DNA of 64,000 nt from contig CBDESZ010000026.1 in assembly GCA_965242725.1 (NCBI GenBank), forward strand, positions 1 through 64,000, given 5' to 3'. Both the position numbers and the translations under genes were made by a program. Origin of the DNA: Alkalispirochaeta sp. GTDB taxonomy: Bacteria; Spirochaetota; Spirochaetia; DSM-27196; Alkalispirochaetaceae. The notes under the pieces are model-generated. The model made no database searches. It was not told the origin of the DNA and saw only the letters and a program-made list of their open reading frames with translations. Positions 26,939 through 62,980 of this stretch are shown one piece after another; the stretch's first letter is position 1; each line of letters opens with the position of its first letter.

Positions 26939-27412
26939 ATGCCGAGACGACATATTCCTCAGCGAAAGCCGCCGCTTGCGGATCCGGTGCATAACGACGT
27001 TACGGTTTCCCGCTTTGTCAATCGAATGATGCTGCACGGGAAGCGCTCGATCAGCCAGGGAATCATACACGAAGCCCTCGCTGAATTGGGTCAAAAGGTC
27101 ACCGATAAGACCCCGGTAGAGGTTTTTCATGCCGCACTTGAAAATGTGCAGCCCATGATAGAGGTAAAGAGCCGACGCGTCGGTGGATCTACCTACCAGG
27201 TACCGGTGGAAATCAAGGACAATCGTCGGGAAGCACTCGCCATGAGATGGATCATCCAGGCGGCGCGTTCGCGCAGCGGGAAATCGATGGGGCAGCGTCT
27301 GAGTCAGGAACTTCTGGACGCGTACAACGGAACGGGAACCGCTTTCAAGAAGAAAGAGGATACCCACCGTATGGCGGAAGCGAACAAGGCGTTTGCTCAC
27401 TACCGCTGGTAG
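26939..27412 (+). CDS. rpsG: 30S ribosomal protein S7
   Basis: SRRVGGSTYQVP, C-terminal MAEANKAFAHYRW. Confidence 0.98.
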   Translation: MPRRHIPQRKPPLADPVHNDVTVSRFVNRMMLHGKRSISQGIIHEALAELGQKVTDKTPVEVFHAALENVQPMIEVKSRRVGGSTYQVPVEIKDNRREALAMRWIIQAARSRSGKSMGQRLSQELLDAYNGTGTAFKKKEDTHRMAEANKAFAHYRW

Positions 27413-27635
27413 CGAGCAAGCCGCCCTGAGATATCGCTTCGCGAATCTCTACGAGCTTTCGCGCATTACCGCTGGTAATCCGCGAAGAGCTACTGCGATA
27501 TCGCTTCGCGAATCGCCGCGAGCGTTTGCTCACTACCGCTGGTAGCGAGTAAGCCGCCCTGAGATATCGCTTCGCGAATCTCTACGAGCTTTCGCGCATT
27601 ACCGCTGGTAGCGAGTGAATCGCTACGGGATATCG
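27389..27635 (+). repeat. Tandem array of four 66-67 bp units, each starting with the last seven rpsG codons plus stop; two alternating sequence versions
   Basis: Unit starts 27389, 27455, 27522, 27588; 27389-27477 and 27522-27610 differ at one base; shared cores TACCGCTGGTA and GATATCGCTTCGCGAATC. Confidence 0.93.
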
Positions 27636-27687
27636 AACGCATGTGCCGGAAACGGCATCCCCGGAATAACGGGGGGGTAGATGACAA

Positions 27688-27722: not shown

Positions 27723-27846
27723 GGGAGCGTGTGTCTGCGGAGTTACCGCAGATAAACTGGTCCTGAGGAGCCAAACCGCGCAATTCAGCGTAGGTGGCGA
27801 CGGTAACTCGATCGTTGATCGAGAAACACTTCGCATTACGCGGTCC

Positions 27847-27876
27847 TTGACAACAAGGGCCCGGCTTCCTTATAAT
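27847..27876 (+). promoter_or_regulatory. Consensus sigma70 promoter for tuf
   Basis: TTGACA-N18-TATAAT. Confidence 0.8.
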
Positions 27877-27977: not shown

Positions 27978-29168
27978 ATGGCCAAGGGCAAATTTGAAAG
28001 GACAAAACCGCATGTTAACGTCGGAACGATCGGTCACGTAGACCATGGTAAGACGACGCTGACTGCCGCAATGACCATGGTGAGTGCCGCGAAGTTCGGC
28101 TCCAAGGTCATGAGCTACGAGGAAATCGACAACGCTCCTGAAGAAAAAGAGCGCGGTATTACCATTAATACCCGGCACGTAGAGTATGAGACGGACAATC
28201 GTCACTACGCGCACGTCGACTGTCCCGGGCACGCCGACTACATCAAGAACATGATCACCGGTGCCGCCCAGATGGACGGTGCGATCCTCGTTGTCGCTGC
28301 AACAGATGGTGCCATGTCACAGACTCGTGAACACATTCTTCTTGCTCGACAGGTTGGTGTTCCGAAAATTATCGTGTTTATCAACAAGACCGACCAGGTT
28401 GATGATCCCGACATGATCGAACTTGTTGAAGAGGAAGTTCGTGACCTGCTGAACAGCTACGATTTCCCCGGTGACGAGGTCCCGGTGATCAAGGGAAGCG
28501 CCTTCATTTCCATGGAGAATCACGCTGATCCTGAGAAGACGAAGGAAATCCACGAGCTCTTTGAAGCGATGGACACCTACTTTCCGATTCCCGAGCGGGA
28601 CATTGACAAAGATTTCCTCATGCCGATTGAAGATATCTTCTCCATTCAGGGACGGGGAACTGTTGTTACCGGTCGTATCGAACGGGGAATCATCAAGGTT
28701 GGTGACGAAATCGAGATCGTCGGTATTCGTGACACCAAAAAAACGACCTGTACCGGTGTTGAGATGTTCAACAAGCTTCTCGATGAAGGACAGGCTGGTG
28801 ACAATATTGGCGCGCTCCTTCGTGGTGTTGAGAAGAAAGAAGTTGAGCGTGGACAGGTCCTGGCAAAGCCGGGTTCAATCACTCCCCATACCAAGTTCAA
28901 GGGTCAGGTTTACGCCCTGAGCAAGGAAGAGGGTGGTCGTCACTCTCCGTTCATGAGCGGGTATCGTCCGCAGTTCTACTTCCGGACGACCGACGTGACG
29001 GGAACCGTTACGCTGTCGGGTGACAAGCAGATGGTTATGCCTGGTGACAACACGGAAATTGATGTTGAGCTGATTAAGCCGATCGCTATGGATAAGGGGC
29101 TTCGCTTCGCTATTCGCGAAGGTGGTCGGACCGTAGCAAGTGGTCAGGTAATCGAAGTCGTCGAGTAA
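27978..29168 (+). CDS. tuf: Elongation factor Tu
   Basis: [27 protein letters not shown]. Confidence 0.99.
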
Positions 29169-59782: not shown

Positions 59783-60921
59783 GCGTCGAGAATTGCCGAC
59801 GCCTCCGCGGCATTGTGGGTGTCATAGAGCGCAAAGAGGAGTCTCGTCGCCTCGGGATCCTCGGGAGCGGCGGGAAGGCCGTCGGGTGGTCCGTCGGGGT
59901 AGACGCACAGATAATTGCGAAAAAACTTTTTCAGAACCTCGTAATTCCGGCGATCGCCCCACCGGGCGGTAAAGGCGTTGATCTGCTCGCGAAGATAGGC
60001 AAGCCGCCGGATCAGCGGTATTTCCGTCCATTCCGGTGGCTCACCGCCGTCCTGCGATCCTCGCGCAGCTGAACGCGCAGCTGTGGAGACGGATCTCCTG
60101 GCAAAGATAAGGGGATCGTAAAAGACACCACGGCCGATCATGATGCCGTCGACCCTCGTCTCTTCCACGCGCCGGAGTCCCTGATCGATCGAGTATACGT
60201 CGCCGTTCCCGATGATTGCGGTGTCGTGGCCGCCCCTCCGCAGGCGTTCATCCCGCAGGTTCACCGCCTTTGCCACCTCCGACCACTCCGCCGCACCTTC
60301 CGAAAGCTGGTCGGCGATGCGGCCGTGGATCGTCAACGCGTCGATATTCAACTCCAGGAGAAAATCGACCCATTCCTCGGTAACGACGCGATCGAGGCCG
60401 ATTCGCGTTTTCACGCTCAGGGGCAGCGATGATCCGGCGCGACATGCGGCGATGATTTCCGCGGCTACGTCGTGTCGCCCGATGAGGGCGGAACAGGCGC
60501 CGACTTTGCGGATTTTTCGCGCCGGGCATCCCATGTTTATGTCGATACCGTCAAACCCGAGGCGTTCCACCGCCTGCGCCGCCGCGTAAAACTCTTCCGG
60601 ACGGGTACCCCAGAGCTGGGCGACCATCGGGCGTTCAAAATCGGTATAGACGAGACGATCGTACCGCTCCGGGGAACCCGCCGTCGGGCGCGTCGCTTCC
60701 GTTTGTTGCGACTCATCAATCCGACGCGCCGCCTCCATCTGCCACGCCCGCACCGCGCCGTCGACACGGGTAAATTCGGAATACATGATTGCCGGTCCCG
60801 GACTGCCCCACGCCAGTGACCACCGGCGAATGAGGGTCCGGAAGACGGTATCGGTCACGTCTTCCATGGGAGCGAGTACGAAAAAGGGGCGCGGGATATC
60901 GCGATAGAGGGAGGACATCAC
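59761..60921 (-). CDS. dus: tRNA-dihydrouridine synthase
   Basis: LAPMEDVTD, DINMGCP, SVKTRIG, IHGR, GNGD, MIGRG. Confidence 0.92.
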   Translation of the reverse strand: MMSSLYRDIPRPFFVLAPMEDVTDTVFRTLIRRWSLAWGSPGPAIMYSEFTRVDGAVRAWQMEAARRIDESQQTEATRPTAGSPERYDRLVYTDFERPMVAQLWGTRPEEFYAAAQAVERLGFDGIDINMGCPARKIRKVGACSALIGRHDVAAEIIAACRAGSSLPLSVKTRIGLDRVVTEEWVDFLLELNIDALTIHGRIADQLSEGAAEWSEVAKAVNLRDERLRRGGHDTAIIGNGDVYSIDQGLRRVEETRVDGIMIGRGVFYDPLIFARRSVSTAARSAARGSQDGGEPPEWTEIPLIRRLAYLREQINAFTARWGDRRNYEVLKKFFRNYLCVYPDGPPDGLPAAPEDPEATRLLFALYDTHNAAEASAILDAYPGRPV

Positions 60922-62054
60922 AATGCGGACAGGAACCAGAACATGGCGACGCCGAGGTAATTTCCGACGGCGTACCCGATGACACCGGTGGTGATACCCG
61001 CCGCGATGAGACGGGGATCCCTGACAATAGGGGCGAGCATGCCCACAAAGGGAGGCGAACAGACCGCGGAAATGCTGGTGACCATGATCGTCCCCCTTCG
61101 AATCCTGAAAATTCGACCCAGAATGAAATGGAGGCCGAGGCTGCCGAAGACGACGATGGAGAGATAGGCGATGATCACCGGAGAGGTGGTGACCATCCGT
61201 TCCACTTCAGCCATCGATCCGACGGCGACGGAGAAGATGAGGATGAAAAACTCCCCGGTCCTGAAGCTTGTAGTCAACCGGGATATACCGGGAATTATGG
61301 TTGCCAGGAGGGAGAGTGTCGTCAAAAGGAGAATGGTCACCGTCGTCGCGTGCTCGTCGGGGACCATTGCCGAGAGGGCGACGCTCAAGAGTACGACGGC
61401 GGCGGCGCATCCAAGGGCGATGAACGTTGTCCCCCGGTTGCCCCGAGCGACTATTTGAACATACGCGGGTGAGAGATTATCGGCACCGCCGCCGGAGGGG
61501 GCGGCGGATCTGCCGTCACGCTCCTCTCCACCCAATATGCGCCGCCCGAGGAGGAGGATAAGGAGGATGTAGACGGCGCTCACGAGAAGATCCACCGTGT
61601 GAACCGTCAGGTAGAGGGAGCTTTCCACGTCAAGGGCGACGCGTATCGCCGCAAGATTCGGTGTTCCGCCGGTATAGACGCCCACGAGGAGTCCGCCGAT
61701 TTCCGCACCCGACTGGACGAGATGGGCAAGGAGGAAGTGGGCGACCGTCACCGCGATAAGTACCGAAATTCCGGCGAGGAGGAACGAAATGATCGCCTCC
61801 CGGCCCGCCCTCATCCAGCCACGGATATCGACGGCAAAGAGCATGAGGGGAATCGAAAACGCCACGGCGGCACTGGAAACGCCGTCCTGCAGTGCCCCCA
61901 TTGCCGCGGTGTGGGGCAGAACCAGCGAAAGGAGCAGTCCCGCCACGTAGGCGGGAATGATCGGATTGATGACGTTTGTCCGCGGCAGATAGTGCTGGAC
62001 AAAAATGATAATGACGGGAATCAGGATGAACAGGAGGGCGATGCTATACTCCAC
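60918..62054 (-). CDS. DUF819-like multi-pass membrane protein
   Basis: GVYTGGTPNLAAI, CSPPFV, GYAVGNYLG; many TM helices; GTG start with GGAG RBS. Confidence 0.75.
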   Translation of the reverse strand: MEYSIALLFILIPVIIIFVQHYLPRTNVINPIIPAYVAGLLLSLVLPHTAAMGALQDGVSSAAVAFSIPLMLFAVDIRGWMRAGREAIISFLLAGISVLIAVTVAHFLLAHLVQSGAEIGGLLVGVYTGGTPNLAAIRVALDVESSLYLTVHTVDLLVSAVYILLILLLGRRILGGEERDGRSAAPSGGGADNLSPAYVQIVARGNRGTTFIALGCAAAVVLLSVALSAMVPDEHATTVTILLLTTLSLLATIIPGISRLTTSFRTGEFFILIFSVAVGSMAEVERMVTTSPVIIAYLSIVVFGSLGLHFILGRIFRIRRGTIMVTSISAVCSPPFVGMLAPIVRDPRLIAAGITTGVIGYAVGNYLGVAMFWFLSAL

Positions 62055-62070
62055 AGGAAACTCCCCAATG

Positions 62071-62217
62071 CTACTTCTTCTTTTTCAGGGCAAGAAAAAT
62101 CGCGCCCAGGCTCCACAGTCCCACCGTGGCGAGGGCGGTTTGCCACATTGAATCAACGGTACCGGCAAGTACCGGAATCCAGAGCAGCACGGTCCCTGAA
62201 AGAAGAAGTACCATCAT
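62071..62217 (-). CDS. Small 48-aa hydrophobic membrane protein (not in ORF track)
   Basis: MMVLLLSGTVLLWIPVLAGTVDSMWQTALATVGLWSLGAIFLALKKKK; GAGGCGGGG RBS; fills the ZIP-DUF819 gap on the same strand. Confidence 0.6.
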   Translation of the reverse strand: MMVLLLSGTVLLWIPVLAGTVDSMWQTALATVGLWSLGAIFLALKKKK

Positions 62218-62230
62218 ACCCCGCCTCGTT

Positions 62231-62980
62231 TCAACCGGCGAGAACCTGAAACACCGTCATTCCCGCAACGGCGAGGGTAGTCGTCGTCGCGACGTGTTCC
62301 TTTTTGGCGTTTTCAAGAGCCTCGGGTATGAGTTCAGACGTGACCATCCATATCATGGCGCCGGCGGCAAGACCGAGACCGACGGGGAGTACCGGTTCAA
62401 AGAGCCGTACAAAGAGGAACGCCGGGACGGCGACGAGGGGCTGGGGAAGGCTTGAGAAAATGGCCCACAGTCCCGCTTTCCACGCCCTGACGCCGCGCGG
62501 AACGAGGATAAGTGAAATCGCGAGACCTTCCGGGATGTTGTGGACGGCGATGGCGAGGGAAATGAACGCGCCAAACTGCTCCCCTCCGCCGAAGGAGACC
62601 CCCACGCCGACGCCTTCCGCAAAGGAGTGAAGGGTCATGACACCGACAATCATGAGCGCTTTCTTTGCGTCCGCACCCTGAAGATCCCCCACTGAAACTC
62701 CGTCGTTGTGGTCAAGACGGGTCTGGGTCACGTAAATGAAGAGGACCCCGAGAAGAATACCTCCGACGGTACGCCACATGCTGTAGTCGATACCTTCGTA
62801 GATGAGATTGAAGCTCGCCGCGGCCATGATTCCCGCCGCAAAAGCGCCGGCCAGGGCGAGGACGCGCCTGGACAGATCCTTGCGGACAAAGAAAGGAATT
62901 GCCCCAAGCCCCGTTGCCAGGGCGGTAATCATGGCATAGACAAATACGATCCATACCGACGGGAGTGCGAGATCTTCCAT
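62231..62980 (-). CDS. ZIP family divalent-metal transporter (ZupT/GufA-like)
   Basis: LHSFAEG.G.G, AIAVHNIPEG, AAGAM..ELIPE. Confidence 0.9.
   Translation of the reverse strand: MEDLALPSVWIVFVYAMITALATGLGAIPFFVRKDLSRRVLALAGAFAAGIMAAASFNLIYEGIDYSMWRTVGGILLGVLFIYVTQTRLDHNDGVSVGDLQGADAKKALMIVGVMTLHSFAEGVGVGVSFGGGEQFGAFISLAIAVHNIPEGLAISLILVPRGVRAWKAGLWAIFSSLPQPLVAVPAFLFVRLFEPVLPVGLGLAAGAMIWMVTSELIPEALENAKKEHVATTTTLAVAGMTVFQVLAG

What the first reader, a model, noticed from the sequence alone, without database searches (positions are those of the whole stretch)
27389..27611. The 3' end of rpsG is re-encoded four times in two alternating synonymous-codon versions
Seen: GCG TTT GCT CAC TAC CGC TGG TAG (version A; 27389, the real gene end, and 27522) alternates with GCT TTC GCG CAT TAC CGC TGG TAA/TAG (version B; 27455, 27588) at 66-67 bp spacing. 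All encode AFAHYRW*. All five A/B differences are synonymous third-position changes, and homology stops sharply at the Ala codon. A freely decaying duplicate would not mutate only at wobble positions. Inference: version B came from, or has served as, a translated rpsG end. Models: stacked att-type scars of elements that integrate into and rebuild the rpsG 3' end; repeated capture of a foreign rpsG end; a decoy array of integration sites; or interchangeable gene-end/3'UTR cassettes. No recombinase is encoded in the window.
Basis: partly seen in the sequence, partly recalled or inferred. Interest (0 to 1): 0.82.

Follow-up and report, generated by a model that had tools for sequence, protein, structure and literature searches.

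The report
Stacked hairpin cassettes replacing rpsG ends
The last eight codons of an essential ribosomal protein gene sit four times in a row, each inside a small folded DNA unit that seems to arrive carrying its own working copy of the gene end and push the old end aside, a pattern that recurs at this gene in three bacterial phyla although no responsible enzyme was found.

Summary
Confirmed and not an assembly artefact. Right arms match the copy upstream of them, not downstream (27 of 27 decided cases), so a unit carries its own gene end and lands in front of the old one. Similar arrays occur in 3 other species of the genus (28 synonymous, 0 non-synonymous differences), 17 of 51 genomes of another spirochaete family, 16 of 56 of a Lachnospiraceae-type genus and 2 Actinomycetota records; the rplN end control gave 0 of 62. 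The A/B alternation is largely one 133-bp duplication. No cargo gene, adjacent integrase, phage attP or enzyme tracking the arrays was found. Best reading: a tiny non-coding cassette that replaces the rpsG end (0.5); enzyme-free recombination between species is the main rival (0.25). Not found in the literature searched; this scan noted the same kind of insert before on other DNA (e1-5121718).

The parts
26939..27412 (+). rpsG (ribosomal protein S7); its last 8 codons are the live copy, version A
   Evidence: ORF list; one rpsG match per genome in 28 of 31 genomes
27389..27424 (.). Unit 1 hairpin 1: live gene end A as left arm, 3-nt loop in the Arg codon, right arm starting in the Trp and stop codons
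   Evidence: fold; right arm scores 9.0 with its own left arm vs 6.0 with B
27428..27449 (.). Unit 1 hairpin 2: 5-bp stem, one bulged purine, 4-bp stem, 3-nt loop; reads GCGAAGC on the bottom strand
27455..27490 (.). Unit 2 hairpin 1: displaced gene end B (27455-27478) with its own matching right arm
   Evidence: 10.5 with B vs 4.5 with A
27495..27516 (.). Unit 2 hairpin 2, with a compensated pair change in the outer stem against units 1 and 3
27522..27557 (.). Unit 3 hairpin 1: second copy of A (27522-27545); one change in the right arm
27561..27582 (.). Unit 3 hairpin 2, identical to unit 1
27588..27623 (.). Terminal copy: B-type left arm (27588-27611, stop TAG) joined to an A-like right arm that no longer matches it; a recombinant or the old resident end
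   Evidence: score 4.5 vs 7.5-10.5 for units 1-3; arms printed
27627..27639 (.). Probable decayed start of a fourth hairpin 2
   Evidence: read from the sequence; inference

Best explanation
The repeat is a stack of tiny non-coding cassettes specific to the rpsG 3' end. One cassette = the last 8 codons and stop of an rpsG allele + an inverted arm that pairs with them + a second small hairpin. SHOWN: the anatomy, that arm and upstream gene end travel together, that displaced ends differ from live ends almost only synonymously, and that such arrays recur at rpsG in three phyla. INFERRED: a cassette comes from another strain or species where its gene end was the working one, and is inserted at the base of the stem just before the Ala codon, so it becomes the new end of rpsG (protein unchanged) and pushes the resident end downstream; repeated events build the array from the gene side and old copies decay or are deleted. 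INFERRED, weakest: the folded single strand is the substrate of a trans-acting, structure-guided nicking or recombining enzyme encoded elsewhere. In this genome two versions (A, B) plus one 133-bp duplication or re-insertion give A-B-A-B.
For: Right arm closer to the upstream than to the downstream gene end in 7/0/1 (genus), 9/0/3 (second spirochaete family) and 11/0/2 (Lachnospiraceae-type) cases, closer/farther/tie. Own-arm vs swapped-arm permutation p = 0.00085 (8 units) and 0 of 20000 (15 units). 28 synonymous and 0 non-synonymous differences in 8 displaced copies of 4 genus members found by a DNA-distance scan, where 18-19% of single changes are synonymous. Terminal copies pair worse with their downstream sequence (genus mean 4.75 vs 9.25), as expected of old resident ends. 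Non-synonymous decay appears in later copies: rank 2 28:12, rank 3 6:1. G000 and G009 share an identical live end (7 of 7 degenerate codons) and hairpin 2, but only 17 of 44 upstream codons, with differences 3-4 codons before the unit. All 8 intact displaced copies in the genus start at the same base, 5-7 nt after hairpin 2. Gene specificity: 17 of 51 vs 0 of 62 for the rplN end; only rpsG in this genome. The same hairpin 2 sits as a 38-bp insert with a 6-bp flanking repeat in an IS91-like transposase gene, with filled and empty alleles in one genome, so this module does move.
Against: No enzyme found: Y1 transposase in 1 of 4 array genomes, reverse transcriptase 1 of 4, Uma2 3 of 4 and also in the array-free G006, integron integrase over cut-off in 1 of 4 and in G006, Y2 transposase 3 of 4. 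On the tree all array and relic genomes fall in two neighbouring clades, so one ancestral origin with losses is not excluded. The left junction is fixed within a clade but differs between clades (33, 24, 21 or 18 nt before the gene end). Spacer sequences are unrelated between phyla and some units enclose a native-looking terminator. Arm co-variation can arise by template switching with no selection or enzyme (PMC8794818, abstract). The contiguous-arm test failed for Lachnospiraceae (p = 0.89) because their arm lies further downstream. Rank-1 counts outside the genus (130:0 overall) are forced by the search pattern. Strand bias of wobble pairs is unclear: 5 G.T vs 5 A.C in the genus, 2 vs 9 in the other family. 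One relic copy in G013 has 4 non-synonymous differences of 8.
Confidence: 0.5

Rival explanations
1. No dedicated enzyme. A hairpin arose by template switching at the natural palindrome in the Tyr-Arg-Trp-stop codons; hairpin-assisted slippage made a first duplicate; after that, donor DNA from relatives recombines through two short homologies (live end and displaced end) and adds the donor's end plus 3' region in front of the recipient's end. The array spreads as a by-product of gene exchange.
For: Explains synonymous-only copies and upstream pairing of arms without an enzyme, and none was found. Units are almost fully folded, which would bring a slipping 3' end back to the unit start. Identical tandem units occur (L065, L074, L084). 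Units with different enclosed terminators and eroded 5' ends look like captured 3' regions. The hybrid fourth copy shows a crossover inside the core.
Against: No donor tract upstream of the unit in G000 vs G009, so crossovers must fall within about 8 nt of the unit start. Random crossovers in 24 nt should often uncouple the 5'-most wobble base from its arm, yet position 3 pairs in 15 of 20 units of the second family (units pre-filtered for pairing). Does not by itself explain why rpsG and not rplN.
Confidence: 0.25
2. The copies are kept in place by selection: an RNA structure or binding site spanning the rpsG stop (for example for S7 feedback or for coupling to the next gene), or decoy targets for an enzyme whose specificity mirrors the conserved codon positions.
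For: A stem between the Ala-Phe-Ala codons and a downstream arm recurs in three phyla. Displaced copies of G000, G003 and G009 share the same middle codons. Array and relic genomes are neighbours on the tree.
Against: Most relatives have no arm at all (71 of 75 matching genomes in the order have one copy; array-free ends score 4.1). Unit lengths are often not multiples of 3, so the copies are not read through. G.U pairs on the mRNA strand are not in excess. No Rfam family. Two-base Arg codon swaps and a TAG-to-TGA stop swap need a translated source.
Confidence: 0.13
3. Stacked att scars of ordinary integrase-encoding islands or prophages that target the rpsG end and later lost their interior.
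For: Same logic of gene-end restoration; known for other protein genes (e.g. PAISt at a palindrome in the bacA 3' end, PMC4057263, listing only).
Against: No full-length element: longest same-contig spacing 222 nt in 239 genomes searched (one array, G506, is split by a contig break); nearest tyrosine recombinases lie on other contigs; no viral, phage or plasmid attP. Repeated near-exact deletion to 66-67 nt is unlikely.
Confidence: 0.08
4. Plain local tandem duplication with free decay, or an assembly artefact.
For: The second half of the array is a near-perfect 133-bp repeat; no single contig or read spans the array.
Against: Five of five A/B changes synonymous has probability about 0.003 if the copy decays freely while the live end drifts (0.31^5, my arithmetic); the same in three more species; independent assemblies carry arrays.
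Confidence: 0.04

Closest known systems
Integrative elements that insert in a gene's 3' end and carry its replacement (tRNA/tmRNA/protein-gene islands; e.g. PAISt at bacA, PMC4057263, listing only; general rule recalled)
   Same: Restores the gene end, displaces the old end, can stack in tandem
   Different: 55-140 nt, no integrase, no cargo; gene end is one arm of a co-varying hairpin; not found on phages or plasmids
REP/BIME/REPIN repeats mobilised by RAYT (PMC3116915, listing; details recalled)
   Same: Short non-coding palindromic modules in mosaic arrays just after a stop codon
   Different: One locus per genome, not hundreds; includes coding sequence; no Y1 transposase found in this genome
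Cyanobacterial small dispersed repeats, SDR (Elhai et al. 2008: not held, recalled; one passage on SDR5 seen in PMC5861425)
   Same: Tiny structured modules with compensatory changes, site-specific for a palindromic target, no known enzyme; hairpin 2 behaves as a 29-nt module (G005)
   Different: SDRs are dispersed and reported only from Nostocaceae; they are not known to replace gene ends
Integron attC sites and cassettes (recalled)
   Same: Structure-conserved, sequence-variable hairpins with unpaired bases; polar stacking; GCGAAGC-type loops occur in an attC-like site of this genome
   Different: No attC core boxes in the units, no genes, no full integron integrase in this assembly
Homology-facilitated illegitimate recombination (PMC3240628, start of abstract)
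   Same: Foreign allele enters through homology on one side and leaves a duplicated end
   Different: Junction here is fixed within a clade and no upstream donor tract is seen

Membership tests
Integrase-encoding island targeting a gene 3' end | Displaced fragment of the target gene end | tested here: met
Integrase-encoding island targeting a gene 3' end | Integrase gene next to the att site | tested here: not met
   4 PF00589 matches, all on contigs C12 and C25; only tuf follows
Integrase-encoding island targeting a gene 3' end | Cargo between attL and attR in some relative, or attP on a phage or plasmid | tested here: not met
   draft genomes, one array split by a contig break
REP/BIME with RAYT | Many dispersed copies per genome | tested here: not met
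   hairpin 2 occurs 3 times, all in the array
REP/BIME with RAYT | Y1 (RAYT) transposase flanked by the repeats | tested here: not met
   no PF01797 in G000, G003, G005; G009 and G039 loci show no mini-hairpin clusters
Integron attC | RYYYAAC ... GTTRRRY core boxes on the hairpin (consensus recalled) | tested here: not met
   absent from 27389-27654 as read
Integron attC | Integron integrase in the genome | tested here: inconclusive
   none over cut-off in G000 (92% complete); present in G003 and array-free G006, partial in G005 and G009
IS91-derived miniature element | Insertion 5' of GAAC or CAAG (rule recalled) | tested here: not met
   CAAG precedes the live end but displaced copies in the genus do not begin with it; paper search gave listings only
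SDR elements | 21-27-nt structured module with compensatory changes found in unrelated contexts | tested here: inconclusive
   hairpin 2 fits in size and contexts; SDR sequences could not be compared, paper not held
Known structured RNA family (Rfam 15) | Covariance-model match | tested here: not met
   one chance hit at E 2.3
Any enzyme-mobilised element | Mobility shown, enzyme identified | not testable with these tools
   needs strain panels and experiments

The most novel reading that the evidence does not exclude
A so far undescribed class of minimal mobile element: a 55-80-nt, gene-free, folded single-strand cassette that targets the conserved end of an essential ribosomal protein gene across phyla, makes its insertion harmless by supplying a recoded working gene end paired to its own arm, and is moved by an unknown structure-guided enzyme; the arrays are a chronological record of insertions, newest next to the gene.
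Probability: 0.3. Interest if true: 0.85.

Novelty: new variant of a known kind. Interest (0 to 1): 0.68.

Why it matters
If true, an essential, supposedly static ribosomal gene has its last codons repeatedly swapped by one of the smallest mobile units known, and a site-specific enzyme that reads a conserved coding sequence while tolerating wobble changes awaits discovery; that would be a new insertion chemistry and a safe-harbour site shared across phyla. Even under the enzyme-free rival, the arrays are dated snapshots of inter-species exchange at a core gene. The array-rich clades found here (about one genome in three) make the question testable.

Tried and rejected
Rfam scan: nothing. Other gene-end echoes in this genome: none convincing. 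Viral contigs: one whole host rpsG; hairpin 2 hits lie mostly inside terminase-like coding sequence, 4 of 5, taken as chance. Phage and plasmid BLASTN: none useful. Metagenome scan for the junction found one contig, identical to the G003 array, no cargo. Phylum sample: 401 genomes, only this genome plus 2 matches (G261, G372) that do not look like units and were not followed up. Candidate enzymes (Y1, Y2, GIY-YIG, RT, integron integrase, Uma2, tyrosine recombinase) do not track the arrays in 5-genome comparisons, which have little power. Read-through or mini-ORF translation of the copies: rejected, frames differ between species. IS91 target rule: not met. Folded strand from wobble bias: a first count (G.T vs A.C 4 vs 7 and 0 vs 11) weakened on position-wise recount (5 vs 5 and 2 vs 9); inconclusive. 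The rplN control is imperfect (little intergenic room; G521 has a second, different match 1000 nt away). Runs were contigs only, so expression and strand were not testable; RNA run X5 and the small-share runs give no evidence. Literature searches for rpsG arrays or rpsG as an insertion site found 0, 1 irrelevant and 0 papers; the library lacks most subscription papers.

Full report
OBSERVATION. Copy 1 ends rpsG (26939-27412); tuf follows at 27978. A and the first B differ at five third positions, the last copy at four. Homology stops at the Ala codon. Neither version occurs elsewhere in the assembly, and a six-frame scan for ORF ends echoed within 30 kb gave 67 rows of which only the three rpsG rows are short synonymous echoes (the rest judged by eye). 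Contigs of run X1, probably the source sample, tile the region without a difference but none spans the array; run X6, from another study and about 9% different in rpsG, has an array piece and shows the B-type right arm directly behind its live stop. With arrays in three further species of the genus an artefact is very unlikely.

The repeat is the whole unit. The Tyr-Arg-Trp-stop codons form a natural small palindrome; behind the stop it is extended by an arm complementary to the gene end, giving a 36-nt hairpin with a 3-nt loop. The A arm pairs with A and the B arm with B. A second hairpin follows (5-bp stem, bulged purine, 4-bp stem, 3-nt loop) with a compensated change between A and B units; on the bottom strand it reads GCGAAGC, a mini-hairpin far more stable as DNA than as RNA (PMC13037366, passages; the RNA comparison there is for the 8-mer). 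Positions 27389-27477 recur at 27522-27610 with one difference, so A-B-A-B is two versions plus one 133-bp duplication or re-insertion. The fourth copy joins a B left arm to an A-like right arm.

DISTRIBUTION. Genus: 4 of 14 genomes with an assembled rpsG carry 2-4 copies; G013 has a decayed copy (8 mismatches, 4 non-synonymous) and G007 a more decayed remnant seen by eye. Order: no other array in 99 genomes, 75 with a match. Phylum sample: none convincing in 400 others. A scan of one genome per species for two copies 30-60 nt apart gave 33 stretches: 3 are the genus genomes above, 12 other spirochaete-type, 16 Lachnospiraceae/Clostridia-type, 2 Actinomycetota. In the family of one of these, 17 of 51 genomes with a match have tandem copies; in the genus of another, 16 of 56. 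The rplN end in the same family showed no tandem copy in 62 genomes with a match, an imperfect control. Spacer sequences differ between phyla, but each has an arm complementary to the (Lys-)Ala-Phe-Ala codons; in the second spirochaete family the copies often extend to Ala-Asn-Lys, some units enclose a terminator, and some copies are eroded from the 5' side.

WHAT THE PATTERN SHOWS. (1) Displaced ends come from translated ends. In the genus, a scan by DNA distance to the live end (up to 7 mismatches, blind to coding) found 8 copies with 28 synonymous and no non-synonymous differences, 32 to 4 with the G013 relic; 18-19% of single changes are synonymous. The copies are not independent, but A vs B alone has probability about 0.003 under free decay (my arithmetic). 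Outside the genus the first displaced copy is synonymous by construction of the pattern; later copies show decay (28:12 at rank 2, 6:1 at rank 3, all loci). (2) The unit is gene end + arm (+ hairpin 2). The arm is closer to the upstream than the downstream copy in 27 cases, never the reverse, with 6 ties; permutation p = 0.00085 in the genus and 0 of 20000 in the second family, but 0.89 in Lachnospiraceae with the contiguous-arm measure and 0.03 in array-free controls. Terminal copies pair worse. So new units sit in front of old ends. (3) The left edge is sharp. G000 and G009 have identical last eight codons but only 17 of 44 identical degenerate codons upstream, and G000's nearest relatives on the tree, G006 and G008, have no array. 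Against this, all array and relic genomes lie in two neighbouring clades, so one old origin with losses is possible; but neutral copies would not stay intact over branches on which half the synonymous sites have changed, so they are renewed or selected. (4) Hairpin 2 is a movable module: it is doubled in G005, occurs in longer repeats in G039, and forms a 38-bp insert in an IS91-like transposase gene of G009, G005 and G042, with an empty allele in G009 itself; the insert resembles its target and may have entered by homology.

WHAT WAS NOT FOUND. No cargo gene and no displaced copy more than 222 nt away on the same contig in 239 genomes; one array is cut by a contig break. No attP in viral contigs, phages or plasmids. 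No tyrosine recombinase on this contig. None of six further enzyme families separates array genomes from others in five-genome comparisons. No Rfam family. Wobble-pair bias does not settle which strand folds. Frames differ among species, so the copies are not translated by read-through.

MECHANISM. Best reading (0.5): a gene-free cassette that carries a working rpsG end, inserts at the stem base before the Ala codon and displaces the resident end, moved by an unknown structure-guided enzyme in trans. The anatomy, polarity of pairing and recurrence are shown; horizontal origin is inferred; the enzyme is conjecture. Main rival (0.25): template switching makes and repairs the arm (PMC8794818, abstract), slippage seeds a duplicate, and recombination with relatives' DNA through short homologies adds units (HFIR-like; PMC3240628, start of abstract; lead from e1-4601278). 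The two differ only in the need for an enzyme and my data separate them weakly. In-place selection on an RNA structure or decoy gets 0.13, classical att scars 0.08, plain duplication or artefact 0.04.

COMPARISON AND NOVELTY. It works like islands that restore a target gene's 3' end and is built like REP/BIME or SDR modules, but fails the membership tests that could be run for islands, REP/RAYT, attC and IS91 miniatures; SDR could not be compared (paper not held; one passage in PMC5861425; the rest recalled). Three searches for rpsG arrays or rpsG insertion sites found nothing relevant in a library lacking most subscription papers; no supplements were read. Verdict: real, recurrent, apparently undescribed in print; new variant of a known kind, interest 0.68.

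Noticed in passing
window 27730-27830 (+): Conserved multi-hairpin motif between rpsG and the tuf promoter, recognisable across the order; on 12 of the loci RNAalifold gives 23 pairs, 10 with two-sided changes; no Rfam match. Candidate unknown structured RNA.
   Followed up: partly
window 27847-27876 (+): Perfect 12/12 sigma-70 consensus promoter (18-nt spacer) ahead of tuf; fusA is absent between rpsG and tuf here.
   Followed up: no
L139/L117 (G009:C271 about 1910-1955), L118, L122, L123; empty allele L143: 38-bp insert containing hairpin 2, with a 6-bp flanking repeat, frameshifts the end of an IS91-like transposase gene in three genomes of two families.
   Followed up: partly
G000:C6 about 98305-98385 and 98954-99780; second copy near 119400: attC-like site with a central GCGAAGC loop next to one of two identical IS91-like transposase copies in this genome, though no full integron integrase was found in the assembly. 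attC consensus recalled.
   Followed up: partly
L119, L120, L121 (G039): Longer multi-hairpin repeats containing hairpin 2, one downstream of a gene that looks like an Rpn/PD-(D/E)XK nuclease (label recalled); contigs break at two of them.
   Followed up: no
L157 (G502), L158 (G505), L159/L216 (G506), L217, L224: Long mosaic arrays behind rpsG with 123-222-nt units, enclosed terminators and 5'-eroded copies; a Uma2-like gene (label recalled) follows in G505 and G506.
   Followed up: partly
L075: Record titled Leptospira biflexa carries the unit type of the Rectinema-like family; the title may be wrong.
   Followed up: no
G000:C4 about 60000-62700: CRISPR-type repeats surfaced in the gene-end scan (label by eye).
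   Followed up: no
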